From the NCBI GenBank assembly GCA_036803685.1, contig DAIRTX010000006.1, forward strand, positions 3,797-67,796: a DNA stretch of 64,000 nt, in the 5' to 3' direction. The notes beneath the pieces are model-generated. The model saw only the letters and a list, made by a program, of their open reading frames with translations, was not told the origin of the DNA and did not search any database. Both the position numbers and the translations under genes were made by a program. Below are positions 4,688 through 25,385 of the stretch, one piece after another. The stretch's first letter is position 1. Every line of letters begins with the position of its first letter. Origin of the DNA: Verrucomicrobiota bacterium (GTDB taxonomy: Bacteria > Verrucomicrobiota > Verrucomicrobiia > Limisphaerales > UBA11358).

Positions 4688-6745
4688 TTACCATTGCCGA
4701 ACGCGATAAAACCGCTGCGAGTTGGTGGCGGTTGTGTCGGTCAATATTTGTGTGCCTCCGTTGCCGGTGACGAGCGGCAAGGCAGTCCAGTTACTGTCTA
4801 CCAGCGAGTTCTGATATTCCAGTGCATAGACTTTCCCGCTCTGCGTTGGCAGAGAAAGGCTGAAGGAAGAGATGCTTTTTGTCGAATTGGTTAGCGATAC
4901 ATGGAGTGCGGGTGGGGTCGCACTCACAAGGGCTAAACTCTGTCCACCTCCAACTGCGATGGCTATAACATTGCTCAATCCGGCAGGCACATTTGTCAGA
5001 CCCCATGTATTGTCTCCCCACGAAACCACCGTTCCGTCACTTACAAGTGCCATACAGTGATATGGCCCAGCACTGATGGCTATGACGTTTGTAAGACCCG
5101 TCGGAATGACAAATGGAGTAGACCATGAGCCGTTCCAAAAATAGCCTGTTCCGGTCACGGTGCTATCATTTCTGAGCGCCATGCCATAGGTATCTACTGC
5201 TGCAATTGCCGCGATGTTGCTTAACCCCGCAGGCACATTTGTTTGGCCAGCATAACCGCCCCAACCTACGACCGTGCCATCACTTCTGAGCGCAAAACTG
5301 GAATTACCTGTTGCAGCGATAGCAACGACATTGCTTAATCCAACAGGCACATTTGTTTGACCGTAATAGTTGCCGAAGTAGCCACCACCCCAGGCAACCA
5401 CCATGCCGTCATTCTTGAGCGCAAGACCGTGGTGCCCGCCGGCAGCAATAGCCACGACATTGCTCAAACCGGCAGGCACATCGGTTGGAACTGAATTATT
5501 TCGCCCCCAACCCGCTACCGTGCCATCTTCCCTGAGCGCAAGGTTGTAGTCTGGTCCCGCCGCAACAGCGATTACGTTACTCAAACCGGAGGGTACGGTC
5601 ATTTCACCATCGCTATTGTCGTTCGCCCACCCAGTCACCGTGCCATCACCCATAATTATCAGACTATGATCTCCAACTCCTTGTCCGCTCCCTCCTACTG
5701 CAACTGCCAATGCTTGAGTCTGGCTGCCTGGTGCCATCGTTTGGCCATAACCCTGTCCATAGTATTCATCCCCCCATCCAACCACCGTGCCGTCTCGCTT
5801 CAGCGCCAAATTGTGATATGACCCGGCGGCAATCATGACAACATTCGTAAGGCCAGCCGGAACGCTAACAGGAACATGGTTCGTGCTGTGCCAAATGGCT
5901 CCCCATGCCACCACAGTTCCATTGCTTCTAAGCGCGAGACTGTAATCGTTGCCAGCGGCAATGGCCACCACGTTGCTCAACCCCTCCGGCAAATTCGTTT
6001 GTCCACCGCCATTGTAACCCCAAGCGACCAAGGTTCCATCGGATTTCAAGGCGACATTGTGATCTGCCCCGGCGGCAATCGACACTACATTGCTCAATCC
6101 GATCGGGATGTTTGTTTGACCATAGTAGTTGTGGCCCCACGCAACGACTGTCCCGTCATTTCTGAGTATCAGATTGTGTTCCCATCCTGCAGCAATAGCG
6201 GTTACGTTGCTTAAACCTGCCGGGACATTTGTTTCGCCGTCGAAATTGGGTCCCCACGCAGTGACCGTACCGTCACTCTTCAAGGCCAAGTTGTTCCATC
6301 CTCGTGAGGAAATTGCCACGATATTGCTTAATCCGTCTGGCAAGGGAACGTCGAAACTGTACCCCCACTCCGCAATGGTGCCATCCGTTTTAAGAGCCAG
6401 ACTGTAAAGAGCGCCACCTGCAACAGCCATCACATTGCTTAATCCCGTCGGGACGGAGACCTGACCGTAACCATTGAATCCCCAAGCGACCACTGTGCCA
6501 TCATTTTTGACGGCTAAACTGTGGCGCTCCCCCGCAGCAATATTGGTAAACACAGTTCCCGATTCCACGTATGGTAATACCACCGTCCCCCAACCCGTCA
6601 CCTGATTGGCAGGTAAACCGGCGGCGAAGTTCTGACTCAAAGCCAGCATGCCTGCCAGCCAAGTCATGGTCACGGCTGATTTCCATCCATTGGTTCTGAC
6701 CAGTTTAACTTTTGCCTCACTGCCGACGACCTGTCTGGTTTTCAT
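4688..6745 (-). CDS. Secreted RCC1/BLIP-II beta-propeller repeat protein with C-terminal FYRV domain
   Basis: About 14 repeats of GTVVAWG..GQTNVP.GLSNV.AIAAG..H.LAL, a hydrophobic N-terminal segment, ends [10 protein letters not shown]. Confidence 0.88.
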
Positions 6746-7379: not shown

Positions 7380-10300
7380 TCACGGATACTCAACGAGCCG
7401 GTAGAATTTCATGGCCGTCGGCGCGTTCGTGTCCACGAAGGTGAAATTGGTGGTGACGGAAGTGATGTAAGGCGGAGTGGGCGGGATGTAGTTCCACACC
7501 ACCGGCGGCACCAGATTGGTCGTCCAGGCCACCTGGAACTGGTAATTGGTCGGCGCGGACCATTGGAGCTGGAAGAAACCGTTGGTCGTTACCGTGACGC
7601 TGGAAATGAGCACGGGCAGTGGATTGACGGTGACGGTGAAACGATTGGTGGCGCTGTTTGGCGGCAGGCTGTTGTCGGTGACGACGGTGGTAAAGGTGTT
7701 GACGGTGCCGGCCTGGGCCAAAGCGGGTGTCCAGGTGATGATGCCATTGGCGTTAATGCCCGGGGCCGGAAGGCCGGCGACGGTGGTGGTCAGCACATAA
7801 CTGAGCGTCGCGTTGGTGTTCAAATCCGTCGCGGTGTTGGTCACCACCAGCGGGGTCAGCGCCTCAATGGTCAGGTTCGGCTGGAACGGCAGGGTCAGCA
7901 CGTTCGTTGATTGCAGGAGGATCAACCGGTAAAAGCGCATCGGACCGAGCCCGCCACTTTGCGAGCCGTCGTCGAAGAAGCTGAACAGCCCGTTCGTCGG
8001 TGTCACCGGTCCGGTGTAGCCGATGATGTTGGTGAAGGTGTTCCACGCGGGCGGCGCGAGGTTGTCCGTCCATTGCACCTGGAATAAATCGTTGGTGGGC
8101 GCAAACCAAGTGAGCAGGAAGCCGTTCGTCACGCCGATATTGGTGGCCGTGATGCTGGAAATAAAAATGGTGTTGGTCAGCGACGGCACGTTGGTCGAAG
8201 TCAACAAATGAAAATCCACCTCGATTCCGAAAGTGACAGCGAAGCTGTTCGTGTTCTGCACGCCGAGATAATAAGTTGAGCCGGGCACCAGCGGCGGCGT
8301 GGTGCCGGCGCTCAAAACGACGGAACCGTTCGTTCCGGACGGATACGTGATGTCCGGCAACAACAATAGATTGGTCGTCGGAGGAGAGTTGGTGTCGAAC
8401 CACACATTCACCGGCGCCGTGGCGAAGAGCAGGATGTTGGTCGCGAAATCCGCGTTCGTCGGCACATTCACCACGTAATAGGTAATGCCACCGGCGGCGA
8501 CCGAGTTCGTTTGCGGCTGACCGCCCGGCAGGTTTATCAACGTGGTGACAGTGACGGTGAAACTGTTGGTCGCGCTCAACGAGGTGGCGTTGACGGCGGG
8601 GGGATTTGTATCGGTAACAACTGTGGTAAAGATGTTGGTGGTGCCGGCTTGTGCCAGGGTTGGCGTCCAGGTGATGACGCCATTGGTGTCAATCGTGGCA
8701 CCGGCTGGGAAGCTGATCAACTGGTAAGTCAAAGGGTTCACCGGAATGTCGGAATCGGTCGCCGTATTGGTCACGACGAGCGTGCTCAAGTCGTTGATAA
8801 TATAATTTGTCTGTGACGGCAGAACCGGCGGGGTGTTCACTTCATTCACCGTCACGGTGAAACTGTTGGTGGCGCTCAACGGCGGCGCACCGTTGTCCGT
8901 GACGACGGCGGTGATGATGTAAACCCCCGGTCCCTGAGCCTCGCCCGGTGTCCAGGTGATGACGCCGTTGCTGTTGACGACCGGCGGCGGATTCGTTGTC
9001 GCATAATTCAACGGCCAGCCGTTTGTGATCATGGCGTTCGTGTCAACGAGCATCGTCACTGTGTAAGTCAGCGTCTGCGGCGGCAGGTCCGAATCGTTCG
9101 CGGTGTTCGTCACCAACAGCGTCGTCATTTCATCCAGCGTCACTGGCGGCGGATTGGTGGTCAGCCAGAACGGCGGAGTGTTCGTGAGGTTGACGTTGAA
9201 TGACGAGGCGAGCGCCAGATTATGAAAATAACCGCTTGAGATGGCCACCACGTTGCTCAAGCCGGGGGGTATGCTCGTTTGATTGGTGCTATTGTCGCCC
9301 CAGGCCAGCACACTTCCGTCATTCTTCAACACCAGGCTGTGGAACCCTCCGGCGGCGACCGCCACCACATTGCTCAAGCCTGGCGGCACATCCGTTTGAC
9401 CGTCGCTGTTGTCGCCCCAGGCCACCACCGTCCCGTCGTATTTCAACGCCAGACTGTGAAAACCTCCACCCGCGATGGCCACCACATTGCTCAAGCCCGG
9501 CGGCACATCCGCTTGACCGGCGGCGTTGTCGCCCCAGGCAACCATCGTGCCATCATTCTTCACCGCCAAACTGTGGAAACCACCACCGGCAACGGCCACC
9601 ACATTGCTCAAGCCCGCTGGCACATTGGTCAGGCCGGCGATATTGTAGCCCCAAGCCACCACCCGGCCGTTGCTCTTCAACGCCAGACTGGACCATCTGC
9701 CGCCCGCGATATTCACCACACTGTTCAAACCCGCCGGCACATTCGTCTGGCCAGGAATCGTATTGGCGCCCCAAGCCGCCACCGTCCCGTTGTTCTTCAA
9801 CGCCAGACTGTAAAATTCCCCTCCCGCCACAGCCACCACGCCGTTCAAATCCACCGGCACATTCGTCTGACCATGGAACCCATCACCCCAGGCCAGCACC
9901 GTCCCGTCGTTTTTCAAGGCCAGGCTGTGATCATGAGCGGCGGCGACGGCCACCACATTGCTCAAGCCCGGCGGCACATTCGTCTGGCCGAGGTAATCGG
10001 CGCCCCAGGCTACCACGCCCGTTTCATCAAAAATCTGGTCGAAGCCATAGACCACTTCCACCACTTCCACGATATTGCTCACCACCAGGCGGAAATGATA
10101 CGGCTGGTTCATCACCAAACCGTTGATCTGGTTGGTCACATAAACCACATTGAAACTGCCGCCCACGCTGACCGGCGGCGTCTGGTTTCCGTAGCCTGCG
10201 CTGGTTCCCCATTCGAACCAGGCCGTGGTGGGCGGGCCATTGGGCGTGGCCATGCCGTTCAACTGGGCGCTCGTTCCCGTAACGGAAGTGGCCGGCTGCG

Positions 10301-13300
10301 TGAACGCAAACGGCGACAGGGCACCCGTCACGAAGACGGTAAAGTAATTCGTGACGCTCAAGTGCTGGTTGACCGGCGCCCAGGGATTGAAGTCCGTCAC
10401 CACCGTGGTGATCACGTTGGTGGTGAAAGCCTGCGCCAGCGTCGGCGTCCAGGTAATGATGCCCGTGTTGACATCAATGATCGGAACATTGGTGCCAGTC
10501 ACGGTGCTGGTCAGCGTGTACGTCAGCGGATTGGCCGGGATGTCCGAATCGCCGGCCGCGTTGGTCACGATCAGCGTGGAAAAGGCGTTGATGGTCTGAT
10601 TGGACGGTGTGCCCAAAAAGAACGGCGCCGTGTTCACTTCAATCACGATCACATTGAAACTGTTGGTCGTATGCAACGGCGGCACGCCGCTGTCGGTGAT
10701 GATGGTCTGGATGGTATAAAATCCCGGCCCCTGCGCTTCTGTCGGCGTCCAGGTAATGATGCCGCTGGCGCTGATGGCCACGCCGGGCGGACCGGACACC
10801 GAGTAAGTCAACGGCTGGTTTGTGCTGGAGGCGGTGTTCGTCACCGTCAGCAGGGTCAATTCATCAACGATTTGCGTTCCAATGGGCGGCGGGGCGGGCG
10901 GGAATAACAAGTGGAAGTCCACCTCGATTCCGTAGGTAATGTTGGAGGTGCCCGTGTTTTGCACGCCGAGATAATAAGTCCCGCCAGCCGCGAAATTGGT
11001 CGGCGCGCTGATGAGGCTCAAAACGGAGGAGCCTCCCGTCGAGTTGGGTATCAACAGGTAATCCGGCGGGGTGGTGCCGACGGGCAGCGTGGTCTGGTTG
11101 AACCACACATTCAACGGGCCGGTGGCGAAGAGCAGGCGGTTGGTGGCAATGTCCGCATTGATCGGGACGATGACCAGATAATACGCCATGCCGCCTGGGG
11201 GAATGACATTGGTCACCGCCAATCCGTTGGTGAGCACGCCGATTGAACTGACGGTGGTGGGGAAATTGAACCGCAACTGCCAGCTCACGAGCGTGTTCGT
11301 GAGACCGGCACCGGCGCGGTTGTCCCAAATTTCGAGCTGCCACTGGCCCAGCGCGTTCAGCCCCTTATAGGTGTCGAGCGATTGCTCGGGCAGATAATAC
11401 ACGTCACCGCCGTTCAGCACCGAGTTCGTGACATATTGGGTCGTAACCAGAAACTGGGTCAGGGCGAAATTGTCCAGCAACATTCCCGGCTCAAATCCGG
11501 CGACTTGCAGGACCGTGTTGCTCAGCGCGGCAGTGAAGGTGATGTTCGTGGTCTGCCAGTTGGTGTTGTTGCCGAAGAAAAGGAAATTAGTGCCACCCAC
11601 GGTCACCTGGGCCTCGGCCAGGCCTTGCGCGATGGACGGCGCGTTGGTGTCGTATTTGCCCGAGCTGCTGTGATTGCAAATGGCCTTGATTTCCGAGGCT
11701 GAGAGCGGGCGATTGTAAATGGTCGGCTCATCCATCATTCCATTGAAATGATTGGCAAAATTGCCTGCCGGCCTGACCCCCAGGAAGAAATCGACGCTGG
11801 TCCAAGGGGTAAAGCCGGTACCCAAATTCGCGCTTTGAACGACCCCGCCATTCCGGTACAGAACCGCCAATCCCGTTGCTTTGTTGTAAGTCATCGCTAC
11901 ATGTTGGAAAATGTTTCCCGTCATGGTCCCTCCCACCGAACTCAGGTAGTGCGCGGTGAGAGTGGTATCCATAATATTGGCGTAGAGATCACCGTCCCAA
12001 TTCCCCGAAATCCCAAATTGTGCACCAAGGGGCCCTGCGCCACTGCCGGAACCTACATTCCACTCCAACAGCGATTGGAGATTGTTGATTGGGGCGCCCA
12101 CCGGGTTGACCCAGGCATCGATGGTGTAACCGCTGTTGTTGATTCCAACATTGAGACTGGCACTGGCGGGGACCCTTACTTGCGAAGTGGAGCCGTTGAA
12201 GATAAACGCTTTCCCAACCACACCGTTGGTGTTAGTCATGTTGCTCGGGATGCCCGGGTTGTTGCTGATGCTGTCGTTCCCATTATTTTCCCCCCGCCAC
12301 AAGCTGACAGCGCCCGGCCCGCGATAGGCATACGACAGGGTGTAAGTCTGGTCCGGCACCGTGGGCAACAGGCGCGAGATCACGCCGTCGGCCAGCGCCA
12401 GCAGGTTGCTGCCCCGATAGGCCAGATTGGTATCAGTGATCACTGTGACCTGATTGGCGTTGACGGCCCAGCCGTCAAAGTAATGGCCCTGGGTGTAATC
12501 CCCGGCCGCTGCGCCTTCAAAGCCATTGGCCCCGCTCAATGGCGCCAGGTCAACCGCGTCCAAAAGAACCCCGGAAAAATTGCCTGAAGCATCCAGGGAA
12601 TGAAAAGCCAGGGATGTGGACAAAGAAGTTGCGGTGAACATGTAGGACACCGTTTGCCAATTGAGGTTCGCCCAGGTGTTGGTGTAATTCGCAACCACAT
12701 TGGTCACGACTGTGCCATTAATCGAAACGTTGGCTTGGGGGATATGGGGAGGATTCCCCATGGCTCCCAGGATGCTGTCCGGGTTGCGCGCGTAGGCGAA
12801 ACGAAGGATGTAAGTCTGGCCTGGAACAGTGGTGATGTTCGTGGAAATCCCTCCGGCACTGAAGCCATTCAGGTCCAACAACCAACCCCCTTCATAAGCG
12901 GTTTGTCCCCACGTTCCGTTGGTGACGACATCCACATTTTCGAAGTCAACCAGCCAGCCTCCGGCAAAACGGGTCCCGGCTGTGGGATTAATATTTGTAC
13001 TGCTCCCCAACTCGAAGGAATTGTGCCATCCAACGGCCGCATTGGTGACCGGCACCAGATTGGTCACCAGCACCGCATTGGTGACCAGCATGTTGGTCAG
13101 AATGCCGTGAAACGGCGGCACGGCATATTTGATGGGCGTCGTCGTCTTGTTCGTGTTTTCCGTCAGCACCAGATAGGCGTAGCTGGCCTGCAAGGCACGC
13201 ACCGTGTAATCCCAGCGGGTACCGATTTGCCCGCCGCCTGGGTCCATCACAATGGTTAGGTAGGATGAGTTGGTATAGGCAACATTGAATAGTCCACTAC

Positions 13301-16300
13301 CTAAAATAATCCCAGAATCAAAAATTTGATGTCCACTCTGGTCATAAATGACCATCTGATCCGGTTCAATGTTATAGAAATTGTAGAAAATGCTCAGCGT
13401 GCCGGTGGTCGGAGACACATTGATAATGTTGGTACCCCCCTCTGGACCGCCGGTGGACGAGACCGGGATGATGTTGGTGACGGCGAAGGTCGCGCCCATG
13501 CCGTTGGTGGTGGTGCCGCCGCGATTTTCCACGAGCAGACAACGTGTCCCATCCGGGCTGATCAAATGGAACACCAAATCGGACACGCGCTGATGATCCA
13601 CGCGCAAAGCGGCTTCCACCGACGAAATGGTCTGGGCCGCCGTCACAAAAATGGAATTCGTCATCACGGCGTCGTCCAGAATCGGCGTCGGGCCGCTGGA
13701 ACTGAAAATCACCTGCCCCGGCACCGCGCCCATACCGAACTTCGCGATAACATACACCGTCTGCGGAAGTATGCTCTCGTTGTACAAACCGACCCAGTAA
13801 CGGCCCGGCGGCAGCGGCGGGCCGATGGAAATGGAGCCGTCAAAACCCAGAAGCCCGCTGTTGGTCAGCCTCGCCGGCCCGAATTCATTGGTGTCCGTCA
13901 GTGTCGGTATGGCGCCGACTTTGACGAACAGATCCACCTGCCCGGTCCCGGTCAGGTTCGTGGCGTAGATCGTCAAATTGGTCGCGCCGGCGGGCACATC
14001 AATGAAATCGCGGAACCAACCCAGCGGCCCGAGGGTGGTGGTGATTCCCTTGGTCAGGTCCTGGTGCGGCTCAATCAACATTTGGAAGCCGGTCACGCTG
14101 CCGGTCTGGGTCAGCGAATCGTCCACTTCGGTCAAAATCCACGGGCCAATGGCTTGCTGGCCGACGTAATCGTTCAAACTGCCCGGTCCGTCGGACGGTT
14201 GCGAACCGACAATGTCTCCCTGCCCGCTGTTGTCATAAATAATCGTGTAAGGTCCGGGCGGATTGCCGAGTGAATCGTGATTGTTCAATACCGTCGTCCG
14301 CGACAGCCCGTTCTGGCCGCCGTGTGTCAGCGTCCCGAGGAGGTCGCCGAAATTCTGGTGCGTGATCGTGCTGGTCACGGTGCCGCGCTTGATTTCCATT
14401 GGATTTATGGCGAGGGCGAAAACGTATCCCACACCCGGATGCGCCGGACTGCCGTCGGGGATGTTGACCGGCAGCACCAGGCCGTTGACGATCTGGCTGC
14501 CGTTCGGGTTCATCTGGCTGAACGGGATGTCGGTGAAGATGGGAATAAATCCGTATTCCGATGCCTCCTGATCCTCCGAATACACGCCGACGTAATAAAC
14601 CTTGCCGGGCGCGGAATTGGTGTAATAGACGAACTCGATGCCTCCACGACCGACCGATTTATCCGCGTTGGAAATGACGACGGGGTCCAGGTTCATCAGC
14701 CCCGGATTGCTGCTGACGTAAAGGTCAATGTCCGCTTCGGGCCGCGTGGCGTTGGCCACTGTGTCTTCAAACACACCCATGCGCGGAATCGAGAGCGTGT
14801 CGGGAATGAAGGTGATGAACGCGGCGTTGGTGAAATCCGCCGCGCCGGTGTTGGTGATCACGTAGAAATGCCACTGGTTCGTCATGCCGAGCGTGACCAG
14901 CACGTTCGTGCCACCCAGTTGGATGCCGTTCAATTCCGTGCCCCCGGCGGTCAGTTGAATCGTGTTTGTGCCGAGCAGCGGCGTGCTCGCGCCGACGAAT
15001 TGATTCAACAACGGCGCGTTCGTCGTGGTCACAAAAGTCATTTGCTGGTCAGACGTGGGATTGGAAATGATCGGATTGTCCGTCGCCGTGAACGCGTTGG
15101 TGACCTCGCCGTTGCCGATGGAAATCACGAGCGCGAAATCCTGCACCACGTTGTTGGTGTGGGCGGTGACGGCGTTGACGTTGACGCGATAACCCAAAAC
15201 CGTGACGGAGAAGTTCGTGCCGGCACCCGGCGGCAGATAAACATTTTCAACATTGTTGATGGCATCGTAATTCGGCGCGTTCGTGCTGCTCTGCGCCGAA
15301 CTGAAGGTGCTCGATGCCGGGAAGTCGTTGCCGTAATAGACGATGGGATTGGTCGGATTGCTGAGATTGGTGACGACGAGGTTGAGATCGTTCACGAGCT
15401 TGATGGCGGCGGCCGGGTCGCCGGGCGGATCCGTCCATGCCAGCGTGATGCGCAACGGCAATGCCGCCGCCGCACTGGCAATAGTAAGGTGGTAGGTATG
15501 GCTGTCGCCCGTGGCCAGCGCGCTGGCCGGACTCTGGTCGAGAACAAGCATCGCCTCGCCGGTTGCGTTATTCACGTTCGTCGTGATTCCGGGTGGCAGC
15601 GAATTGGGCAGGTTAATCAACCCCCAACCTTGGTAATTGATCGAGTTTTGAGCCTGGAAATCGTAGTTCCCATCGGGCCGCGCACCGTTGATGAGCATTG
15701 CCTTGAGCAACGCCGGGCTGGGCGTAGTGTGCAGCGTGTTGGTGAAGTAATCCTGCATTAACACCAGCACACCGGACACATCCGCCGCCGACATGCTCGT
15801 GCCGGATTCGTAACGGTAGTAATGCGGAGGAACCAGCGAGTCCGGATCTCCGCCCAGCGAATTGTTCAAATTGCTCAACACCGTGTAATAATTTCCAAGG
15901 TCGTTCGTTGTGATGATTTCAGTAATAATATCGTAGTTGACCAGAAAGTTGTTGGTGTTACCCACTGCATACCAGAACCCGACGTTCTGGATATCCAGGA
16001 TGCTCGCGATGGCACCGCCGCTGTCCGGTGGAATGGAAACCTCGTTGTCGCCGGTCACGAAATCGTAAGTGTTGGTGGTCGGCAAATCCGCCTGCTCCAC
16101 ATAGATCGGCATGTTCGGCGGGAATGGCGGTGGCGAAAGAATGTTCGGGACAACTTGAATCATGACACCGACGGCGTTTCCGGGAACGAAAATGTTGTAA
16201 TAATTCAACGTTTGGGGAGCCACGGCCTGCTTGACGAATTCGGCAAAGTGATAATTCGTCGGGTTGTAATACGCCTTTTCGTCCCATTGCTGCGATCTGG

Positions 16301-17930
16301 TAGAGACAACAAATGTCCCTGGCGCGACCACGTCCGGTTTAAAACGGCCGTTGCCACTTTCAACGCCCACACCGACGTTGCCCCGGCTGGAATATCCGGC
16401 CACTTGAAAACTCGTGTCCGTCATCGGTTTCCAGACAGCGGCCGAGTTGCTGTTGCGGTCGGTGACAATGTTCGTGATGCTGCGCAATTGCTCCAGCGCA
16501 CCCACGGTAATCACGTTCTTGGCCGTGGCCGGTGACAGGATGGTATCCGGATTTCCACCGCCGCCGCCATCATTGCCGCCACCGGCGTTGCCCGCCGAAA
16601 ACACAAACAACACCGGCTGCGAACCAGTCATTTCCGGCAACGCATCGCGCACCGCCGCGTCGTAACTTGCCGCCGCCAGGTCGTAGGTGCTGTCGCCGTA
16701 GTTCCAACCGTTGTTGGAAATCAGAGCGTTCGTCCGCGCCGCCGCTTCCTGAAGCTCCCGGTCTGATGCGTTCCAGTCCATGGAGAGCAAATTCGCCAGC
16801 GGCGCCATGCCGCGAAACTGGCCGTTCGTTCCGGGCATGATTGAACCGGACGCGTTGGTCACGGTCTTTGATTCATAACCATCTCCCGCAATGATGCCCG
16901 CCACGTGTGTGCCGTGGCCGTCAGTGTCAACAAGGCTCGCCGGATTCCCGAAAACCCGGACGGGGGAACCCCCGCCGTTGCTGAAATCGGGATGGGTCGC
17001 GTCTATACCCGAATCGTTCACCACCACCAATACGTTGCTGCCGGAAAGATTGAGATAATTCGTCGTCGTTTGCGTGTCAACTGCCACGCCCACGGTCGCG
17101 CGGCTCAAATCATTCGCGTGAACGCGCGGATGATACGGTTCGACGATTTGCACGCCGGGCAGCGTGATCAGCGCCGTCCAATTCTTTGGCGGAATCACGC
17201 GTACGACCGGCCCGAACGGCGAACGGTCCTGCGCCAAAACTTTCCCCCCGAGCTTTTCAATCTCTTGAATCGTTTGCTGTGCGTTGTCGCCGAATAGCCC
17301 GAGATTCAACGCCGCGCCATCCGGCAGAGCCATTTGCCCAACCGCCAAAGTGAGCATTGACGACTGGATTTTGTAATACGGTTCATAGGGAATCACCGCC
17401 TGCGTCAACGGATTGCCCGCCAGCCCATTGGCCACGCCCGCTTGGGCGCGCACGAGATAGGCGTCGTTCGGAATGTAGGAGACAATCTCCGCGCCCGCCG
17501 ACGCGAGCATGGCGCGGAAAGCGTTGTCAATCGGCCCGCGCGCCTGGACGATGTAAGCCCCCGGATCGCCATGCGACCGCAAATGAACCGGAATGGAAAA
17601 ATTCAGCGGGCTGCCCGTGTCAATCAGCGCGTTCTCCAGCAAAATCGCATGGCGGTCGCCCACCAACTGCCCGATGGTCTTGGTCGTGTTGCTGAGGCGA
17701 TAAGCGAATTGGTTTGTTTTAGCTGAAGTTGCACCGTTTGTGGAAACGGTCTGGCCGGTCAAAATGTTCGGCGCGGTGGACGCGGAACGAACCGTCGTGA
17801 CCGTCGGCACGGCAACTTTTGGGAGCGCGGACGGCTTCGTCTGCGTGTTCGCGGCCCGGGGCCAAAGAAGCCACGCACCCGCCAGGCACAGCAGGCACAA
17901 CAAAATCCAGATGAACGGACGCGAACGCAT
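7380..17930 (-). CDS. Giant (3516 aa) S8 subtilase with P-domains, DUF642-like, LamG, Ig-like and RCC1 repeats
   Basis: Catalytic motifs VNDSGID, HGTHVAG, SAGN, GTSMS. N-terminal hydrophobic signal/anchor. Repeated TNTATDSD..LTY..GIITWTP..TNSFTVTV units. Ends KFYRLVEYP. Confidence 0.93.
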   Translation of the reverse strand: MRSRPFIWILLCLLCLAGAWLLWPRAANTQTKPSALPKVAVPTVTTVRSASTAPNILTGQTVSTNGATSAKTNQFAYRLSNTTKTIGQLVGDRHAILLENALIDTGSPLNFSIPVHLRSHGDPGAYIVQARGPIDNAFRAMLASAGAEIVSYIPNDAYLVRAQAGVANGLAGNPLTQAVIPYEPYYKIQSSMLTLAVGQMALPDGAALNLGLFGDNAQQTIQEIEKLGGKVLAQDRSPFGPVVRVIPPKNWTALITLPGVQIVEPYHPRVHANDLSRATVGVAVDTQTTTNYLNLSGSNVLVVVNDSGIDATHPDFSNGGGSPVRVFGNPASLVDTDGHGTHVAGIIAGDGYESKTVTNASGSIMPGTNGQFRGMAPLANLLSMDWNASDRELQEAAARTNALISNNGWNYGDSTYDLAAASYDAAVRDALPEMTGSQPVLFVFSAGNAGGGNDGGGGGNPDTILSPATAKNVITVGALEQLRSITNIVTDRNSNSAAVWKPMTDTSFQVAGYSSRGNVGVGVESGNGRFKPDVVAPGTFVVSTRSQQWDEKAYYNPTNYHFAEFVKQAVAPQTLNYYNIFVPGNAVGVMIQVVPNILSPPPFPPNMPIYVEQADLPTTNTYDFVTGDNEVSIPPDSGGAIASILDIQNVGFWYAVGNTNNFLVNYDIITEIITTNDLGNYYTVLSNLNNSLGGDPDSLVPPHYYRYESGTSMSAADVSGVLVLMQDYFTNTLHTTPSPALLKAMLINGARPDGNYDFQAQNSINYQGWGLINLPNSLPPGITTNVNNATGEAMLVLDQSPASALATGDSHTYHLTIASAAAALPLRITLAWTDPPGDPAAAIKLVNDLNLVVTNLSNPTNPIVYYGNDFPASSTFSSAQSSTNAPNYDAINNVENVYLPPGAGTNFSVTVLGYRVNVNAVTAHTNNVVQDFALVISIGNGEVTNAFTATDNPIISNPTSDQQMTFVTTTNAPLLNQFVGASTPLLGTNTIQLTAGGTELNGIQLGGTNVLVTLGMTNQWHFYVITNTGAADFTNAAFITFIPDTLSIPRMGVFEDTVANATRPEADIDLYVSSNPGLMNLDPVVISNADKSVGRGGIEFVYYTNSAPGKVYYVGVYSEDQEASEYGFIPIFTDIPFSQMNPNGSQIVNGLVLPVNIPDGSPAHPGVGYVFALAINPMEIKRGTVTSTITHQNFGDLLGTLTHGGQNGLSRTTVLNNHDSLGNPPGPYTIIYDNSGQGDIVGSQPSDGPGSLNDYVGQQAIGPWILTEVDDSLTQTGSVTGFQMLIEPHQDLTKGITTTLGPLGWFRDFIDVPAGATNLTIYATNLTGTGQVDLFVKVGAIPTLTDTNEFGPARLTNSGLLGFDGSISIGPPLPPGRYWVGLYNESILPQTVYVIAKFGMGAVPGQVIFSSSGPTPILDDAVMTNSIFVTAAQTISSVEAALRVDHQRVSDLVFHLISPDGTRCLLVENRGGTTTNGMGATFAVTNIIPVSSTGGPEGGTNIINVSPTTGTLSIFYNFYNIEPDQMVIYDQSGHQIFDSGIILGSGLFNVAYTNSSYLTIVMDPGGGQIGTRWDYTVRALQASYAYLVLTENTNKTTTPIKYAVPPFHGILTNMLVTNAVLVTNLVPVTNAAVGWHNSFELGSSTNINPTAGTRFAGGWLVDFENVDVVTNGTWGQTAYEGGWLLDLNGFSAGGISTNITTVPGQTYILRFAYARNPDSILGAMGNPPHIPQANVSINGTVVTNVVANYTNTWANLNWQTVSYMFTATSLSTSLAFHSLDASGNFSGVLLDAVDLAPLSGANGFEGAAAGDYTQGHYFDGWAVNANQVTVITDTNLAYRGSNLLALADGVISRLLPTVPDQTYTLSYAYRGPGAVSLWRGENNGNDSISNNPGIPSNMTNTNGVVGKAFIFNGSTSQVRVPASASLNVGINNSGYTIDAWVNPVGAPINNLQSLLEWNVGSGSGAGPLGAQFGISGNWDGDLYANIMDTTLTAHYLSSVGGTMTGNIFQHVAMTYNKATGLAVLYRNGGVVQSANLGTGFTPWTSVDFFLGVRPAGNFANHFNGMMDEPTIYNRPLSASEIKAICNHSSSGKYDTNAPSIAQGLAEAQVTVGGTNFLFFGNNTNWQTTNITFTAALSNTVLQVAGFEPGMLLDNFALTQFLVTTQYVTNSVLNGGDVYYLPEQSLDTYKGLNALGQWQLEIWDNRAGAGLTNTLVSWQLRFNFPTTVSSIGVLTNGLAVTNVIPPGGMAYYLVIVPINADIATNRLLFATGPLNVWFNQTTLPVGTTPPDYLLIPNSTGGSSVLSLISAPTNFAAGGTYYLGVQNTGTSNITYGIEVDFHLLFPPAPPPIGTQIVDELTLLTVTNTASSTNQPLTYSVSGPPGVAISASGIITWTPTEAQGPGFYTIQTIITDSGVPPLHTTNSFNVIVIEVNTAPFFLGTPSNQTINAFSTLIVTNAAGDSDIPANPLTYTLTSTVTGTNVPIIDVNTGIITWTPTLAQAFTTNVITTVVTDFNPWAPVNQHLSVTNYFTVFVTGALSPFAFTQPATSVTGTSAQLNGMATPNGPPTTAWFEWGTSAGYGNQTPPVSVGGSFNVVYVTNQINGLVMNQPYHFRLVVSNIVEVVEVVYGFDQIFDETGVVAWGADYLGQTNVPPGLSNVVAVAAAHDHSLALKNDGTVLAWGDGFHGQTNVPVDLNGVVAVAGGEFYSLALKNNGTVAAWGANTIPGQTNVPAGLNSVVNIAGGRWSSLALKSNGRVVAWGYNIAGLTNVPAGLSNVVAVAGGGFHSLAVKNDGTMVAWGDNAAGQADVPPGLSNVVAIAGGGFHSLALKYDGTVVAWGDNSDGQTDVPPGLSNVVAVAAGGFHSLVLKNDGSVLAWGDNSTNQTSIPPGLSNVVAISSGYFHNLALASSFNVNLTNTPPFWLTTNPPPVTLDEMTTLLVTNTANDSDLPPQTLTYTVTMLVDTNAMITNGWPLNYATTNPPPVVNSNGVITWTPGEAQGPGVYIITAVVTDNGAPPLSATNSFTVTVNEVNTPPVLPSQTNYIINDLSTLVVTNTATDSDIPVNPLTYQLISFPAGATIDTNGVITWTPTLAQAGTTNIFTTVVTDTNPPAVNATSLSATNSFTVTVTTLINLPGGQPQTNSVAAGGITYYVVNVPTNADFATNILLFATAPVNVWFDTNSPPTTNLLLLPDITYPSGTNGSVVLSAGTTPPLVPGSTYYLGVQNTNSFAVTFGIEVDFHLLTSTNVPSLTNTIFISSITATNIGVTNGFLLTWFAPTNDLFQVQWTDNLAPPAWNTFTNIIGYTGPVTPTNGLFSFFDDGSQSGGLGPMRFYRLILLQSTNVLTLPFQPNLTIEALTPLVVTNTATDLNTNATLSYVLTTTVAGLPAPGINANGIITWTPALAQAGTVNTFTTVVTDNSLPPNSATNRFTVTVNPLPVLISSVTVTTNGFFQLQWSAPTNYQFQVAWTTNLVPPVVWNYIPPTPPYITSVTTNFTFVDTNAPTAMKFYRLVEYP

Positions 17931-17985
17931 AACAATTGGTCAAACAACTATCTCACACAATTTTCGCCAAAGCGAGGATGGCTTC

Positions 17986-18265
17986 GGTAGGGCCGCGTTG
18001 CCGCGCGGCCACGGACGACCGGCAGGTCGTCCCCACCACCATTCTCAATCCTCTATTTTCCATCTTTGCTTTCATTTCAGCTTGGCTGACTGCGGTAGGG
18101 CCGCGTTGCCGCGCGGCCACGGACGACCGGCAGGTCGTCCCTACCAATGACTGCCAATTTGCATTCTCAATCCTCTATTTTCCATCTTTGCTTTCATTTC
18201 AGTTTGGCGGCTGCGGTAGGGCCGCGCTGCTGCGCGGCCAGGCGGTGCGGCAGCACCGCCCTACC
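17986..18265. repeat. Three tandem GGTAGGG...CCCTACC REPs with duplicated linker (BIME-like)
   Basis: Copies at 17986-18037, 18094-18145 and 18215-18265. Linkers share CATTCTCAATCCTCTATTTTCCATCTTTGCTTTCATTTCAG. Confidence 0.9.
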
Positions 18266-18290
18266 ATTGATTCAACGATCATTTTCATAA

Positions 18291-21200
18291 TCAATCCGGC
18301 GGCAAAATGTTAAAGCTCTCGATGACGGCGTTGTTGTTCGTCACGACCGGAACACTGAACCAATGTGTGCCAAAAACATCGCTGGTGCTGCTAACGACAT
18401 TGGTCAAACTGCTGCCAAAGCGCACGACGGCGCGGGTAGCGATTTCCGACACAACCTGATAATTCGTGACCATGCCGAAAAACTGCCCACCGCCGGTGTA
18501 AATTGAATTCGGCGCGGGTTTGAGCGCCTGGCCGTAACAATAAATCACATAGCGCGGCGAACCGCTCACGCGCAGCAGCGACATCACCTGCTGCGGCAGC
18601 CATTCCATCAGCTCGTCGCTGATTTGCGCATTCGGGTCAAGCCCGGCGAGGAACGGCGATTGTTCCGTCAGCGCCGGCACGGCCAGAATGTCGCCCACAT
18701 GCGTGAAGCTCTGTAGTGGAAACAATTTGGTGTTCGCGCGAATATCGTTGATGCCGTTGGTGCCGTTCTGCACCAGATAACCCAAACACAGCGGCGAATT
18801 TGGACTTGGTGGAGGACCGACAGGCACAGGCGCACCGGCGGGACCGGCCGGATTGATGACCGTGTAAGTATTGGTGAGGCTCGTCGGCACGATAATGCCG
18901 CTGAACAAGGCCGACCAAGCGGCGAGGTTGGCGTTGGTCGGACCCACATTGACCGAAAGCTGGCCGCGCGTGGCATTGTCATTGAACGCGGTGGTGAATA
19001 GGTCGAACAACAGCCGGTCCTGCACCGGAGCGGAGTTCGTAGCATCAATTGAATTTCCGTTGCCAGTCCAAGTCGTCCAAGTGGCGGTGTAATTGGTCAA
19101 AGTCAAAATGTTCGTCGCTTTGAGGAAGACGGTTTGCCACGGCGTGCCGCGATGGACGCGGCCCAGCCAGCCGACGGTCGGGAATTTGTTGGTCGGGAAA
19201 TCCCAATTGTCCGATTGCCACATCAGCGGATCTTTGAACGCGAAATTGTAGGGATTCGGGTCAAAGTTCGTGGACATGAGAGTTCTTCCCCACGGTTGGT
19301 AACGATTATTCAAAATACCAAAGGTGGGCCTGGGCAAATTCGCGGACTTGTTCCACTGGCTTGTTCCGGTTGGCGGCTTGGTATCCTGCCCGGAATAATT
19401 CAAGTCGCTCGCCAAATAATGAACCAAGGGGTCGTTTGCCTGCCATGAAATAAATTCAAAAATAATCCGCATTGGCGTGAAGGGAACCTGCTGGCTCAGG
19501 TTGGTGTTGACCACGGAACTTTTGCCATTTATCGGCGGGCTTAACTGTTTGGGGTTCCCCTTATAAAAAAATGCATCAAAAAACGGCTTCTCAAGCGCTC
19601 CGTACGTATTGTCCCATGTGCCTCCCGCATTCGACGGCAAATCAGCCAACCCCCTTGAAACATTAATTTGATTCACAACTCCATACGGTTTTGAGCTGTT
19701 TAAATAAGCATTCGTGCTCCACATATACGCCGGATCACCAACCGAGTAAGGATCCTGAAGTTCATTATTTAGATCACGGCTGCTGTCCGGACCGGCGAAA
19801 TGGGCATAATCAATGACGTGATTGCCATCAATGATAATCACCTGCAAGCGATTCGTTGTCCGCAAACCAAAGTGCGGCAGTTGCAAAATGCCGGTGTCTA
19901 AAAAGTTGGAGGGATCCAGAGACTGGGGAATGAAACAAGGCGGAGTATACCCCGGCACAGCGCTGGAACTATAATCATAGACGGAGTTGGTGAGCAAAAC
20001 GACCGTCGAAACCGTCGGGTTCAATGGAATGAAAAACGAGTCCGTCTGTGGCTGGCCATTGGGCTGAGGATAACTGCTGCTCCATGCAGAACCCGGCCAC
20101 AAGTTGGTTGAGAAGGTGTTGGTGAAACCACCGTTGATGATCCGCGGCGTTGAAAAGCCCGGAGCATCATTCATCAACACCATCGAGATGTTGTCGCGGA
20201 CCAACCCCTGAATCGAAGTCAACCTGACATAATCGGAGTTATACGAGTTCCAAAGTTCGGCACCGAGGGAGTTGCTGACGCTGAAAATATACATTTGGTT
20301 GGTTGTAATGGCCCCCGCGATGGTCTGGCGCGTCACCTGCAGTTTACGCTCCACCTGCACAACGTTTTGCATCGTAAACTCGTTGAAGTTCGGGAAACCC
20401 TTCTTTGCACCAATAATCCACGGGACACCATAAATGTTCACGGCTAAATTGGTGACCACACCGCTCATCGCCGCCAAAACGGAGGCGTCAATCGGTTGCG
20501 CGAGTTGCCAGTCGCTCAATCCCGAAACCAACAGTACGACATTCGTATAGCCGCTGATAAAAACATTCGTGCCCCGGCCGTCGGCGTCCCGCGAAAAGAC
20601 CGGGCGGAACACAGACGGATAATTGTTGCCCAGCGCAAATGTGTTATTCGTCGTCGCATCGTAAATGTTGGCGGCGAGCTGGAGCACGCGGTTCACAGCG
20701 GGTGAATAAACGAACTGGTTGCTCACCAAAACCGGAATGTTCCCGATGCCAAAGGCGGGGTAGTTGGCCCATAGGGACGGATTAAAAAACATCGGACTGA
20801 AATCGGTCACGCTGTAAAACGTGGTGGCGAAGTTGGTGGGATTGCTGTTGCGCCACTGGGTGGTGTAGGCGCGCAGCATCCGGTCGGCGGCGTTGGTGAA
20901 AAACGCCAGCGGCTGCCACATGAAGAAATTCGTGGAGGAGGCGACGCCGTTGGTGTTCAAAAATCCATTCAAAACCGGATCAAGATTGTCGTAATTGAGG
21001 TTCATCTTGCCCGAGTCCGGCGTGGTGTCCGTGCCGAGTTGCGAGAGCAGCCGGTAAAACGTGTAGCGGTCGTAGGTGGAGACGTTCGTGCCAGCCTGTT
21101 TCAAATGGTCAATAAAGCCGGGCGGTGTCACGTTCAGTTCCGTCTTGTTCGGGTCGAACAAATCTGATGGCGTGAAATAATGGTTGGTATTGTCCGCGCC

Positions 21201-23389: not shown

Positions 23390-23397
23390 TCCTGTTT

Positions 23398-24498: not shown

Positions 24499-25385
24499 GG
24501 CGCCATCTTTTGATATTCCAAAACGGCGCGGCCCGTCAGCCGGTCAATGTGAACGATGTTGTAGGAGGAATTGGTGCTGTTGCCGGGCGGATTTTCCGCC
24601 ACGTCGGGCGAGCCTGGATCGGGCGGTATGGGCAGTAAAAAAGCCTTGGTCACCGGGTCTTTCACGACCAACACGCTACCCTTCGCAATCGGGATGTATT
24701 CGTCCCGGCCGGCAACCGTCTGCCCATCAACCGTCAGTTGACCGAGATAATTGAACGCGAGGCAGGGAAAGATCAACGATGTGTTGGTGGCGGTGGGAAA
24801 GGGTATGGCATTGGTGGCAAAGCCGTAGATGTCGTACGATTTAACGGAGTTTATCAAATCGGTGATGATGTAAGGTGGACCAGCCAGCGAATTGGTGAAC
24901 TTCGTCCAAGCGATGAACGTGCCGTCGGGCAGACTTTGCCACGGAGCAAGATAATGCCAGGCGTGTTGTCCCGGCTGGTCGCCCATCGCACCACGAGCGA
25001 TGAAAGTGTAGCCGGTCAATTGCTTGTCGCACAAGTTGGTGACGGCGGTTTGCTGGGCGGGAGCCAGGGTGCTCCACCAAGCGCTGTTGTTCCAGAAATT
25101 CGCCGGCATAAAAACCATATAGACCGTCGTGTGCTGGCTGATGGCCAGTTGGCGCGCGCGGGCGACACCGTCGAGCAACTGGCGCGAGGCGCCGAGGGTG
25201 GCGTCCGACTTGGCGAAATTTTTGAGCACCGGCACGGTCAACGCCGCCATAATGCCGAGGATGGCAATCACCACCAACATCTCGATGAGCGTGAAGGCGG
25301 ACCAGGCAAAGGCTGAAGGCTGAAGGCTGAAGGCTGAAACCTTCTTCCGCGCCGGGCGCGCAAACTTTATTTTAGACTTTAGCAT
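24495..25385 (-). CDS. FimT/GspH-like prepilin
   Basis: WSA|FTLIEMLVVIAILGIMAALTVPVL..ARQLAISQHTTVYMVF, and a C-terminal IDRLTGR motif. Leader has AAGGCTG x4 (25309-25338). Confidence 0.85.
   Translation of the reverse strand: MLKSKIKFARPARKKVSAFSLQPSAFAWSAFTLIEMLVVIAILGIMAALTVPVLKNFAKSDATLGASRQLLDGVARARQLAISQHTTVYMVFMPANFWNNSAWWSTLAPAQQTAVTNLCDKQLTGYTFIARGAMGDQPGQHAWHYLAPWQSLPDGTFIAWTKFTNSLAGPPYIITDLINSVKSYDIYGFATNAIPFPTATNTSLIFPCLAFNYLGQLTVDGQTVAGRDEYIPIAKGSVLVVKDPVTKAFLLPIPPDPGSPDVAENPPGNSTNSSYNIVHIDRLTGRAVLEYQKMAP

What the first reader, a model, noticed from the sequence alone, without database searches (positions are those of the whole stretch)
7380..17930. 3516-aa modular subtilase directly downstream of the minor pilin series
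In type IVa systems the fimT-pilV-pilW-pilX series is typically followed by the tip adhesin pilY1 (established). Here a giant protease with an intact D/H/S triad and lectin-like, Ig and RCC1 modules occupies that slot on the same strand, 360 bp away (seen). Inference: a pilus-associated or dedicated secreted protease/adhesin for attacking proteinaceous substrates or cells.
Basis: partly seen in the sequence, partly recalled or inferred. Interest (0 to 1): 0.65.

Follow-up and report, generated by a model that had tools for sequence, protein, structure and literature searches.

The report
Giant protease ending a pilus operon
A 3516-residue secreted serine protease with many binding modules is the conserved last gene of the type IV pilus-like operon of a whole order of soil and bog Verrucomicrobiota, in the position where other bacteria encode the pilus-tip adhesin, which suggests but does not prove a pilus that carries or exports an enzyme.

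Summary
Window 7380-17930 (-) is one 3516-codon ORF for a signal-peptide-bearing S8 subtilase. Its D306/H339/N448/S712 catalytic set is intact and is kept in about 120 homologues.

It carries a P-domain, DUF642/choice-of-anchor-C, LamG, cadherin/Ig-like and RCC1 (BLIP-II-like) modules. It ends in a ~75-aa beta-sandwich finishing ...KFYRLVEYP.

The string PilB2-PilT-PilB-PilC-98aa-CopG-like-G-G-H-I-J-K(giant)-S8 is conserved. K lies directly upstream of the S8 gene in 67 of 72 informative species genomes (Limisphaerales). From the K side, S8 follows in 6 of 6 loci.

The N-terminal 1600 aa are 45-74 % identical across the family, the middle modules vary, and the C-terminal domain is kept. So the refutation criterion (no conserved linkage) fails, and functional coupling to the type IV filament machine is well supported.

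Physical tip display (a PilY1/MshQ-like role) is my best guess, about 0.4. Export as cargo is the main rival. No PilY1 propeller is present. Both AlphaFold2 models were poor, and transcription could not be tested. I found no literature on this cassette.

The parts
7380..17930 (-). Gene for the 3516-aa multidomain S8 serine protease (stop codon included)
   Evidence: ORF list; Pfam/NCBIfam domains; more than 1500 homologues
17859..17930 (-). N-terminal Sec-type signal peptide or signal anchor, aa 1-24 (MRSRPFIWILLCLLCLAGAWLLWP). It is conserved in the family and is followed by a variable S/T/A/P-rich linker.
   Evidence: Sequence; consensus MRxRxxxWILLCLLCxAGAWLFW in alignment A3; predicted helix aa 5-22. 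Whether it is cleaved was not tested.
17136..17648 (-). Two tandem alpha/beta propeptide-like domains (about aa 95-265) ahead of the catalytic domain
   Evidence: AF2 secondary structure beta-alpha-beta-beta-alpha-beta twice, pLDDT 70-85 in an otherwise poor model. Foldseek hits to the propeptide-bearing subtilases ProN-Tk-SP (3afg) and pro-subtilisin. No Pfam hit.
15561..17042 (-). S8 catalytic domain, about aa 297-790. Catalytic codons: D306 (17013-17015), H339 (16914-16916), N448 (16587-16589), S712 (15795-15797). A beta-rich insert of about 120 aa (aa 559-674) lies between His and Ser.
   Evidence: Pfam PF00082; motif positions; conservation in 121 sequences; nearest solved structures KP-43 1wmd, SubHal 5fax, Tk-SP 3afg; insert in the AF2 model
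13449..13625 (-). Proprotein-convertase P-domain (aa 1436-1494), part of the conserved 1600-aa N-terminal core
   Evidence: PF01483, 40.4 bits against a cut-off of 21; present in most homologues
12549..12989 (-). DUF642 / choice-of-anchor C domain (aa 1648-1794), a variable module
   Evidence: PF04862 at 27.6 bits; TIGR04362 at 86 bits, below its cut-off
11685..12194 (-). LamG / concanavalin-like lectin domain (aa 1913-2082), a variable module
   Evidence: PF13385, E 2e-19; NF052521 TafC partial hit
10383..10886 (-). Two cadherin/He_PIG-like Ig domains (aa 2349-2516)
   Evidence: PDB cadherin-23 hits; He_PIG weak hit
9243..10022 (-). RCC1-repeat beta-propeller resembling BLIP-II (aa 2637-2896), a variable module present in only some family members
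   Evidence: PF13540 six repeats; 1jtd_B at E 1.8e-50; domain lists of the homologues
8544..8822 (-). He_PIG Ig-like domain (aa 3037-3129)
   Evidence: Pfam PF05345, below cut-off
7911..8162 (-). Internal copy of the 'FYRL' beta-sandwich domain (aa 3257-3340, ends MRFYRLILLQ)
7383..7622 (-). C-terminal 'FYRL' beta-sandwich domain (aa 3437-3516, ends MKFYRLVEYP-COOH). Nearly every complete family member keeps it at the extreme C-terminus.
   Evidence: C-termini of 120 homologues and of locus ORFs; no Pfam model; profile search finds 1784 representative proteins
17931..18290 (-). 360-bp K-to-S8 intergenic gap. It holds three GC-rich double-hairpin REP-like elements and, next to the start codon, the motif CTCGCTTTGGCGAAAATTGTGTGAGATAGT, which is shared with other species.
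   Evidence: fold -155.7 kcal/mol, z -4.9; no Rfam family; no terminator or promoter called there; motif comparison
18291..22394 (-). 1367-aa giant K-position protein. It has a GspK-like hydrophobic N-terminus and no other known domain, and its C-terminus ...NNAVIESFNILPPD is conserved.
   Evidence: NCBIfam N-terminal hits only; no Pfam; no PDB hit by sequence or profile; 1794 homologues, all unnamed; invariant C-terminal columns
22391..23602 (-). GspJ/PilW-like minor pilin (pJ); the annotated start is doubtful
   Evidence: N_methyl, gspJ and Verru_Chthon C N-terminal hits
23398..24498 (-). PilV/GspI-like minor pilin (pI); the annotated start is doubtful
24495..25385 (-). GspH/FimU-like minor pilin (pH)
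25407..26336 (-). GspG-like pilin 2 (pG2)
26622..27485 (-). GspG-like pilin 1 (pG1). The annotated start overlaps the CopG-like gene, so the real start is probably further downstream.
27443..27730 (-). CopG/BrnA-like ribbon-helix-helix protein (95 aa), conserved between pilC and pG1
   Evidence: PF12441, 42 bits against a cut-off of 28; 75-100 % identity in relatives
27781..28077 (-). Conserved 98-aa protein with no family match, upstream partner of the CopG-like gene
28209..29519 (-). PilC/GspF platform protein
29553..31262 (-). PilB/GspE-type assembly ATPase with an MshEN domain
31272..32366 (-). PilT/PilU retraction ATPase
   Evidence: TIGR01420, 435.8 bits against a cut-off of 319
32470..34185 (-). 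Second PilB/GspE-type ATPase
4688..6745 (-). 685-aa RCC1-repeat protein directly downstream, ending in the same FYRL domain (...QRFYRVRQW). It is lineage-specific and absent in the close relative L084.

Best explanation
Shown: the gene encodes an intact, multidomain S8 serine endopeptidase with a Sec-type signal sequence. It is the conserved final gene of the Limisphaerales type IV pilus-like gene string PilB2-PilT-PilB-PilC-98aa-CopG-like-G-G-H-I-J-K(giant)-S8.

Inferred: it is the dedicated non-pilin partner of this filament, in the position held by PilY1 (T4aP) or MshQ (MSHA). After export and removal of its twin propeptide, it is most likely held on the I-J-K tip complex and presented on a PilT-retractable filament.

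In this model the conserved N-terminal 1600 aa (protease plus P-domain) are the effector. The lineage-variable lectin, Ig and propeller modules choose the target. The conserved C-terminal beta-sandwich is the end that docks to the filament or to the cell surface. The cell would use it to bind and cut proteinaceous or glycoprotein material at a distance.

I put functional coupling to the machine, whether by display or by export, at about 0.75. Tip display in particular is about 0.4.
For: - The ORF and domains are intact, and the catalytic D/H/N/S set is kept in about 120 homologues.
- The K gene lies directly upstream on the same strand in 67 of 72 informative species genomes. In 50 of 54 loci with at least 8.9 kb upstream, pG2-pH-pI-pJ-K are colinear.
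- The reciprocal test holds: S8 follows K in 6 of 6 K-centred loci.
- Wherever the DNA reaches far enough, PilT-PilB-PilC-98aa-CopG-like precede the pilins. PilT passes its curated cut-off.
- The gap falls to 7-80 bp in 13 species.
- The gene order G-G-H-I-J-K followed by a large non-pilin protein matches mshBACDOPQ and fimU-pilVWXY1 (PMC13533445, together with my own knowledge of those operons).
- Both protein ends are conserved while the middle modules vary.
- No PilY1 homologue was found elsewhere in the string.
Against: - There is no PilY1/PilC propeller domain.
- The giant K protein has three conserved C-terminal beta-strand-like segments (low-confidence strands in the model). It may complete its own pilin fold in cis, as GspK and CpaL do, and so leave no docking site.
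- The FYRL domain also occurs internally, in tandem copies, and in proteins away from pilin genes. It is therefore not a unique docking tag.
- Five genomes have the S8 gene unlinked.
- A conserved promoter-like motif and variable gaps allow separate transcription.
- There is no structural or expression evidence. Both AF2 models were poor, and run-mapping was not available.
Confidence: 0.4

Rival explanations
1. Cargo model. The filament works as a T2SS-like or T4P-dependent export device, and the S8 protein is its dedicated secreted substrate. It folds in the periplasm and is pushed or escorted through an outer-membrane secretin by the G-H-I-J-K pseudopilus, then acts free or bound to the surface.
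For: - The pilin N-termini score best as GspG/H/I/J/K.
- Cargo genes often sit next to T2SS operons (my own knowledge; for example pulA).
- In Dichelobacter nodosus, subtilases with pre-pro regions and P-domain-like extensions need type IV fimbriae for optimal secretion (PMC3480457).
- The same conserved linkage data apply here.
- A possible own promoter fits a cargo gene.
Against: - PilT, a retraction ATPase that T2SS lack, is in the same conserved string.
- No GspC/L/M/D was seen in the window.
- A folded protein of about 370-470 kDa would be far larger than known T2SS substrates (my own knowledge).
- A conserved extreme C-terminal domain is not a known T2SS signal.
Confidence: 0.3
2. Maturase model. 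The protease acts on the filament itself. It would process or trim the unusually large pilins or the giant K protein, or release or shed pili, in the manner of a proprotein convertase.
For: - A P-domain is conserved in the core.
- Co-occurrence with K is strict.
- The pilins are large (about 230-310 aa mature), with odd long leader regions.
Against: - A dedicated maturase would not need 2000-2900 aa of lineage-variable lectin, Ig and propeller modules.
- Prepilin leaders are normally cut at the cytoplasmic face by PilD-type aspartic peptidases (PMC8179133), which a Sec-exported subtilase cannot reach.
- Five genomes have the gene unlinked.
Confidence: 0.1
3. Neighbour-only model. S8 is an ordinary secreted or surface nutritional protease of a polymer-degrading bacterium. 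It lies next to the pilus operon through inherited gene order or shared regulation, with no physical or export link.
For: - The window is rich in glycoside hydrolases and other degradative genes.
- The gap is usually more than 200 bp (median 234) and carries a promoter-like motif.
- The gene can live elsewhere: next to recA in L046, L051 and L053.
- The FYRL domain is shared with unrelated secreted proteins.
Against: - Adjacency and orientation hold at 93 % while the flanking genes change: aminotransferase, uvrA, LamG protein, RCC1 protein. Protein identity meanwhile falls to 45 % (S8) and 30 % (K). That is hard to explain without selection for linkage.
- From the K side there is no counter-example.
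Confidence: 0.15

Closest known systems
PilY1/PilC tip adhesins of type IVa pili, and MshQ of the MSHA pilus
   Same: A large Sec-exported non-pilin protein encoded immediately after the I-J-K-type minor pilins. One end is conserved and the rest varies with lineage. The proposed role is tip-located adhesion. The seven-gene order G-G-H-I-J-K-large protein parallels mshB-A-C-D-O-P-Q (PMC13533445; operon order from my own knowledge).
   Different: There is no PilY1/PilC beta-propeller. Here the conserved part is N-terminal and enzymatic (S8). The protein is about three times larger. The K-position partner is a 1367-aa giant. Beta-strand addition was not tested.
T2SS pseudopilus GspG-H-I-J-K with an adjacent cargo gene
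   Same: The pilin N-termini score best as GspG/H/I/J/K and stand in the same order. The exoenzyme gene is adjacent.
   Different: PilT is in the operon. No GspC/L/M/D was seen. The pilins are about twice the usual size, K is four to five times the size of GspK, and the cargo would be unprecedentedly large.
Dichelobacter nodosus subtilases AprV2/AprV5/BprV, secreted with the help of type IV fimbriae
   Same: S8 proteases with a signal peptide, a propeptide and a P-domain-like C-terminal extension, whose optimal secretion needs the type IV fimbrial system (PMC3480457).
   Different: Those enzymes are small (about 50-60 kDa precursors) and, as far as I know, are not encoded inside the pilin operon. 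No conserved synteny has been reported for them.
KP-43, SubHal and Tk-SP subtilases (PDB 1wmd, 5fax, 3afg)
   Same: They are the nearest solved structures to the catalytic domain and the following beta-jelly-roll domain, by sequence (E 2.5e-26) and by Foldseek.
   Different: Those are proteins of 430-540 aa. They lack the insert of about 120 aa between His and Ser, the P-domain and the roughly 2700-aa tail.
Verru_Chthon cassette proteins A-D (TIGR02600, TIGR02598, TIGR02599, TIGR02596)
   Same: A Verrucomicrobia-type pilin cassette with a protein A of about 1300 aa that carries a GspK-like N-terminus, plus three smaller N-methyl proteins.
   Different: Only the first 35-62 residues match, and every score is far below its cut-off (for example 22.6 against 332 bits for A). 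This is a different cassette. I know of no subtilase described as part of the Verru_Chthon set.
Modular or giant pilins (S. sanguinis PilB, GspK, CpaL/TadG)
   Same: This comparison concerns the K neighbour. It has a pilin-type N-terminus with a very large extra body and is probably tip-located (PMC8179133; PMC13533445).
   Different: At 1367 aa it exceeds the 860-aa extreme noted in PMC8179133. It has no recognisable module, and its fold was not resolved.

Membership tests
Peptidase S8 (subtilase) | Asp-His-Ser triad in that order, with an oxyanion Asn, inside a domain that passes the Pfam threshold | tested here: met
   PF00082 at 109.9 bits against a cut-off of 21.8. D306, H339, N448 and S712 sit in the canonical motifs and are conserved in 116-121 of 121 sequences. 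Nearest structures are subtilases.
Peptidase S8 (subtilase) | Secretory pre-pro organisation | tested here: inconclusive
   The hydrophobic N-terminus is conserved. Two alpha/beta domains precede the catalytic domain in a low-confidence model. There is no Inhibitor_I9 Pfam hit, and the cleavage sites are unknown.
PilY1/PilC tip adhesin | C-terminal PilC/PilY1 beta-propeller domain | tested here: not met
   No such Pfam or NCBIfam hit in the S8 protein or in the K protein. The only propeller is the RCC1/BLIP-II type; it lies internally and is missing from many family members.
PilY1/PilC tip adhesin | Gene immediately downstream of the PilX/GspK-family minor pilin, same strand | tested here: met
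   conserved in 67 of 72 genomes.
PilY1/PilC/MshQ functional class | The last ~10 residues add a beta-strand in trans to the K-family pilin (PMC13533445) | not testable with these tools
   No multimer prediction is available. The S8 C-terminus is conserved (...[KR]F[YF][RQ][LV]xxxP), but the same ending occurs in internal domain copies.
Type II secretion system (as the machine for a cargo model) | GspC/L/M and the GspD secretin present, with no retraction ATPase | tested here: inconclusive
   None was seen in the 64-kb window, but they could lie elsewhere in the genome. PilT is in the string, which argues against a classical T2SS.
Type IVa pilus machine | PilB, PilT and PilC together with major and minor pilins | tested here: met
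   PilT is above its cut-off. PilB and PilC are just below their equivalog cut-offs and are ambiguous against GspE/GspF. Five N_methyl proteins are present. PilMNOPQ and PilD were not in the window.
Verru_Chthon cassette (TIGR02596/98/99/600) | Full-length match above the curated cut-offs | tested here: not met
   Only N-terminal stretches of 35-62 aa match. Scores are 21-37 bits against cut-offs of 51-332.
Kexin/furin-type proprotein convertase | P-domain directly following, and packed on, the catalytic domain | tested here: inconclusive
   PF01483 passes its threshold (40.4 against 21) but lies about 720 aa after the catalytic Ser. The catalytic domain is closest to the KP-43 type, not kexin.

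The most novel reading that the evidence does not exclude
A type IV pilus with an enzymatic tip. In Limisphaerales the PilY1/MshQ-type tip adhesin would be replaced by a 2000-4500-aa active subtilase. It would dock through its conserved C-terminal domain onto a giant K-type pilin. A PilT-retractable filament would then extend a protease-plus-lectin head, cut or grip proteinaceous prey or polymers at a distance, and reel them in.
Probability: 0.3. Interest if true: 0.85.

Novelty: new variant of a known kind. Interest (0 to 1): 0.62.

Why it matters
Type IV filament tips are known as adhesins, DNA binders and assembly primers. An enzyme as the conserved tip-slot protein would add a new functional class.

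It would also give a concrete, widespread test case for the recent beta-strand-addition model of tip licensing. The case covers more than 1500 proteins from abundant but barely cultured bog and soil Verrucomicrobiota.

If the cargo model is right instead, this would be the clearest genomic case of a dedicated protease substrate hard-wired to a PilT-containing type IV machine.

Either way it points to how these polymer-degrading bacteria deploy their largest exoenzyme. It also defines two large orphan families worth structural work: the 1367-aa K protein and the FYRL domain.

Tried and rejected
- The full-length homologue search timed out. I repeated it with aa 1-1600.
- The AlphaFold2 model of K aa 168-1367 had mean pLDDT 48, and Foldseek gave nothing with E <= 0.001. 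There is therefore no evidence for or against a PilY1-like propeller or cis strand completion in K.
- A profile of K against the PDB found nothing.
- The AlphaFold2 model of S8 aa 1-1200 had mean pLDDT 57. Only subtilase hits were credible.
- Rfam found nothing in 17000-28500.
- The promoter/terminator scan called nothing in the gap and gave counts equal to the shuffles.
- The metagenome scan with K gave only 6 loci.
- I considered the FYRL domain as a unique C-terminal sorting tag and dropped the idea. It occurs internally and in tandem copies. Apparent 'split' downstream carriers were assembly artefacts: the scaffold gap in L084 and probable frameshifts in L003/L036.
- I considered the RCC1 propeller as a PilY1 analogue and rejected it, because it is a variable module.
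- Literature searches for Verru_Chthon, for Limisphaerales with pilus, and for Verrucomicrobia with minor pilins and subtilisin returned nothing.
Full report
**1. Observation**

Window 7380-17930 (minus strand) is a single ATG-started ORF of 3516 codons. The start is the third codon after the preceding in-frame stop.

Pfam and NCBIfam place these domains:
- a Peptidase_S8 domain from aa 297 (109.9 bits against a cut-off of 21.8)
- a proprotein-convertase P-domain (aa 1436-1494)
- DUF642 / choice-of-anchor C (aa 1648-1794)
- Laminin_G_3 (aa 1913-2082)
- cadherin/He_PIG-type Ig domains
- six RCC1 repeats (aa 2657-2886)

The RCC1 block matches the beta-lactamase inhibitor protein BLIP-II at E 1.8e-50. 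The catalytic domain plus the following jelly-roll is closest to KP-43, SubHal and Tk-SP.

The catalytic residues D306, H339, N448 and S712 sit in canonical motifs. They are kept in 116-121 of 121 aligned family members, so the protease activity is under selection.

The N-terminus (MRSRPFIWILLCLLCLAGAWLLWP) is a conserved Sec-type signal or signal anchor.

**2.

The gene that ends 360 bp upstream (18291-22394) is a 1367-aa protein, not a small PilX. Only its first ~56 residues resemble GspK / Verru_Chthon cassette protein A. It has:
- no Pfam domain
- no PDB relative by sequence or profile
- 1794 database relatives, all unnamed

Before it lie five N-methyl pilin-like genes. Their N-termini score as GspG, GspG, GspH, PilV/GspI and GspJ. 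Further upstream come:
- a CopG/BrnA-like gene
- a 98-aa gene with no family match
- PilC, PilB, PilT (above its curated cut-off) and a second PilB

No secretin, PilMNOP or PilD gene is in the window.

The 360-bp gap holds three REP-like double hairpins. No terminator was called there.

**3. Conserved linkage**

I searched one genome per species with the first 1600 aa of the protease. This gave 80 loci, almost all Limisphaerales / Verrucomicrobiia MAGs (taxonomy).

| Test | Result |
|---|---|
| K gene directly upstream, same strand | 67 of 80 loci |
| Loci with <= 203 bp upstream (uninformative) | 8 |
| True exceptions | 5, so 67 of 72 informative |
| Loci with >= 8.9 kb upstream that show colinear pG2-pH-pI-pJ-K | 50 of 54 |
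| S8 next after K, seen from the K side | 6 of 6 |

The five exceptions come from about two or three relocation events. L046, L051 and L053 lie next to recA, and L062 and L035 make up the rest.

Wherever the DNA reaches far enough, PilT-PilB-PilC-98aa-CopG-like precede pG1.

Flanking genes downstream differ between loci: uvrA, an aminotransferase, a LamG protein or an RCC1 protein. Identity falls to 45 % for S8 and 30 % for K. The adjacency is therefore maintained rather than merely inherited.

The K-to-S8 gap ranges from 7 to 1692 bp with a median of 234, and 13 species have less than 80 bp. Several species share a motif...CTCGCTTTGGCG-AAAATT-TGTGAGATAAT..., 20-45 nt before the S8 start. By my own reading it resembles an extended -10 promoter. 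Read-through and separate transcription are both possible. Expression data could not be obtained.

**4. Family anatomy**

The first ~1600 aa (propeptide-like domains, S8 with a ~120-aa insert, beta domains, P-domain) are 45-74 % identical across the family.

The following 400-2900 aa are a changing set of modules: LamG, DUF642, C-type lectin, NHL/SMP-30 propellers, RCC1, cadherin-like and sialidase-lectin.

Nearly every complete member ends in a ~75-aa beta-sandwich that finishes [KR]F[YF][RQ][LV]xxx(P)-COOH. This domain has no Pfam model. A profile of four window copies finds 1784 representative proteins in 1.84 billion, often with 2-8 copies and often with the last copy at the very C-terminus.

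In the window it also occurs:
- inside the protease (aa 3257-3340)
- at the end of the RCC1 protein directly downstream (4688-6745)
- at the end of a 507-aa protein at 58193-59716

It is thus a clade-restricted repeat domain. Its terminal position in the protease is conserved, but it is not a unique tag.

**5. Mechanism**

Ellison et al. (PMC13533445) show that the large proteins encoded after the I-J-K minor pilins (PilC/PilY1, and by prediction MshQ) anchor to the tip. They do so by donating their last ~10 residues as a beta-strand to the K-family pilin. GspK and CpaL/TadG supply that strand in cis instead.

The Limisphaerales string has the order of the MSHA and fimU-pilVWXY1 operons, with PilT alongside and the protease in the PilY1/MshQ slot. 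My best explanation is therefore a protease-adhesin carried by, or handed over by, a retractile type IV filament. The conserved N-terminus would be the effector, the variable modules the binders, and the conserved C-terminus the docking end.

What is shown is the gene, its intact active site, its domain set and its conserved linkage. What is inferred is export, activation, docking and the use of retraction.

The weak points are:
- no PilY1 propeller is present
- K has a conserved C-terminus...RYVIYCYGQAL...YQVVSEIATRAVVRF...NNAVIESFNILPPD, that may complete its own fold in cis
- both AlphaFold2 models were too poor to decide

**6. Rivals**

- **Cargo of a T2SS-like or T4P-dependent export route.** The precedent is the D. 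nodosus subtilases that need type IV fimbriae (PMC3480457). This is the main alternative (0.3). PilT in the string, the absence of T2SS-specific genes in the window and the size of the protein count against it.
- **A maturase acting on the pilins or K (0.1).** This does not explain the huge variable binding region.
- **Mere neighbourhood (0.15).** This is hard to square with 93 % conserved adjacency across deep divergence and changing flanks.

**7. Comparison and novelty**

The protein is a true S8 subtilase. It is not a PilY1 family member, because a defining domain was tested and is absent. The cassette is not the TIGRFAM Verru_Chthon cassette, because only the N-termini match.

It may work like PilY1/MshQ or like a T2SS/T4P cargo. 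I found no paper on this cassette. I rate it a new variant of a known kind, with interest 0.62. The conserved architecture is solid and unusual, but the claim that would make it striking, an enzymatic pilus tip, rests on gene order alone.

Noticed in passing
window 27443-27730 and 27781-28077 (minus strand); the same position in L002-L093: A CopG/BrnA-like ribbon-helix-helix gene (PF12441, above cut-off) and a 98-aa gene with no family match sit between pilC and the first pilin gene. They are 74-100 % identical across the whole clade, more conserved than the pilins themselves. They look like a toxin-antitoxin-style pair fixed inside a pilus operon, possibly co-opted as its regulator.
   Followed up: partly
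window 17986-18265 (minus strand), plus 50556-50580: Three copies of a ~52-nt GC-rich double-hairpin element (GGTAGGG-hairpin-hairpin-CCCTACC), separated by a repeated 47-nt AT-rich spacer, fill the K-to-S8 gap. A related copy lies at 50.5 kb, and copies occur in the same gap in L011 and L014. The element is REP/MITE-like, has no Rfam match, and folds at z -4.9.
   Followed up: partly
window 23257-23366, 24320-24431, 27325-27406: Inverted pairs of a 26-30-nt element (TCGGAGGGACGAGTTACACGAGTCCC) lie just upstream of the N-methylation motif of three pilin genes. They fall inside the longest ORFs, where they translate as ..FGGTSYTSP.. and ..GTRVTRPS... Either the real starts are non-canonical, or the leaders are unusually long and carry a hairpin.
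   Followed up: no
window 17931-17975; 20-45 nt upstream of the S8 start in L004, L008, L009, L011, L013, L014, L026, L029, L084: The motif CTCGCTTTGGCG-AAAATT-TGTGAGATAAT is conserved while the rest of the gap varies. It may be an extended -10 promoter for the protease gene. Another subclade (L005, L007, L020, L049, L072) instead has TTGGCGTCCTTGGCGCCTTGGCGGTT.
   Followed up: partly
window 4688-6745 (minus strand): A separate 685-aa RCC1-repeat protein with a signal-like N-terminus and the same FYRL C-terminal domain lies between the protease and uvrA. The close relative L084 goes straight from the protease to uvrA, so this gene is a recent addition that duplicates a module type also found inside the protease.
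   Followed up: partly
window 58193-59716 (minus strand), 60193-60825 (minus strand), 61442-62476 (plus strand): A 507-aa secreted repeat protein ending in the FYRL domain (...AVFFRLSNP) sits near a PEP-CTERM protein and an orphan GspG-like pilin gene. This is a second spot where the domain and pilin-like genes occur close together.
   Followed up: no
L023 2264-3619 and L048 2279-3763: In two species an extra gene of 450-494 aa ending ...FFRL(A/V)N is inserted inside the cassette, between the GspH-like and GspI-like pilin genes.
   Followed up: no
window 29553-31262 and 32470-34185: Two PilB/GspE-type ATPases with MshEN domains flank PilT (about 45 % identical to each other). The arrangement is conserved in L092 and L093.
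   Followed up: partly
L012, L015, L030, L038, L048, L052, L054, L068; L029, L033, L035, L050, L062, L066: Many contigs carrying this Verrucomicrobia-type cassette are filed in public MAGs labelled Bifidobacteriaceae, Acidobacteriaceae, Methylomirabilota, Limnocylindrales and similar. This is probably mis-binning or mislabelling.
   Followed up: no
L092 15076-19527: In one genome the protease gene after K is broken into fragments of 544, 416 and 324 aa and is followed by an ISL3 transposase. This is possible decay of the gene, or assembly error.
   Followed up: no
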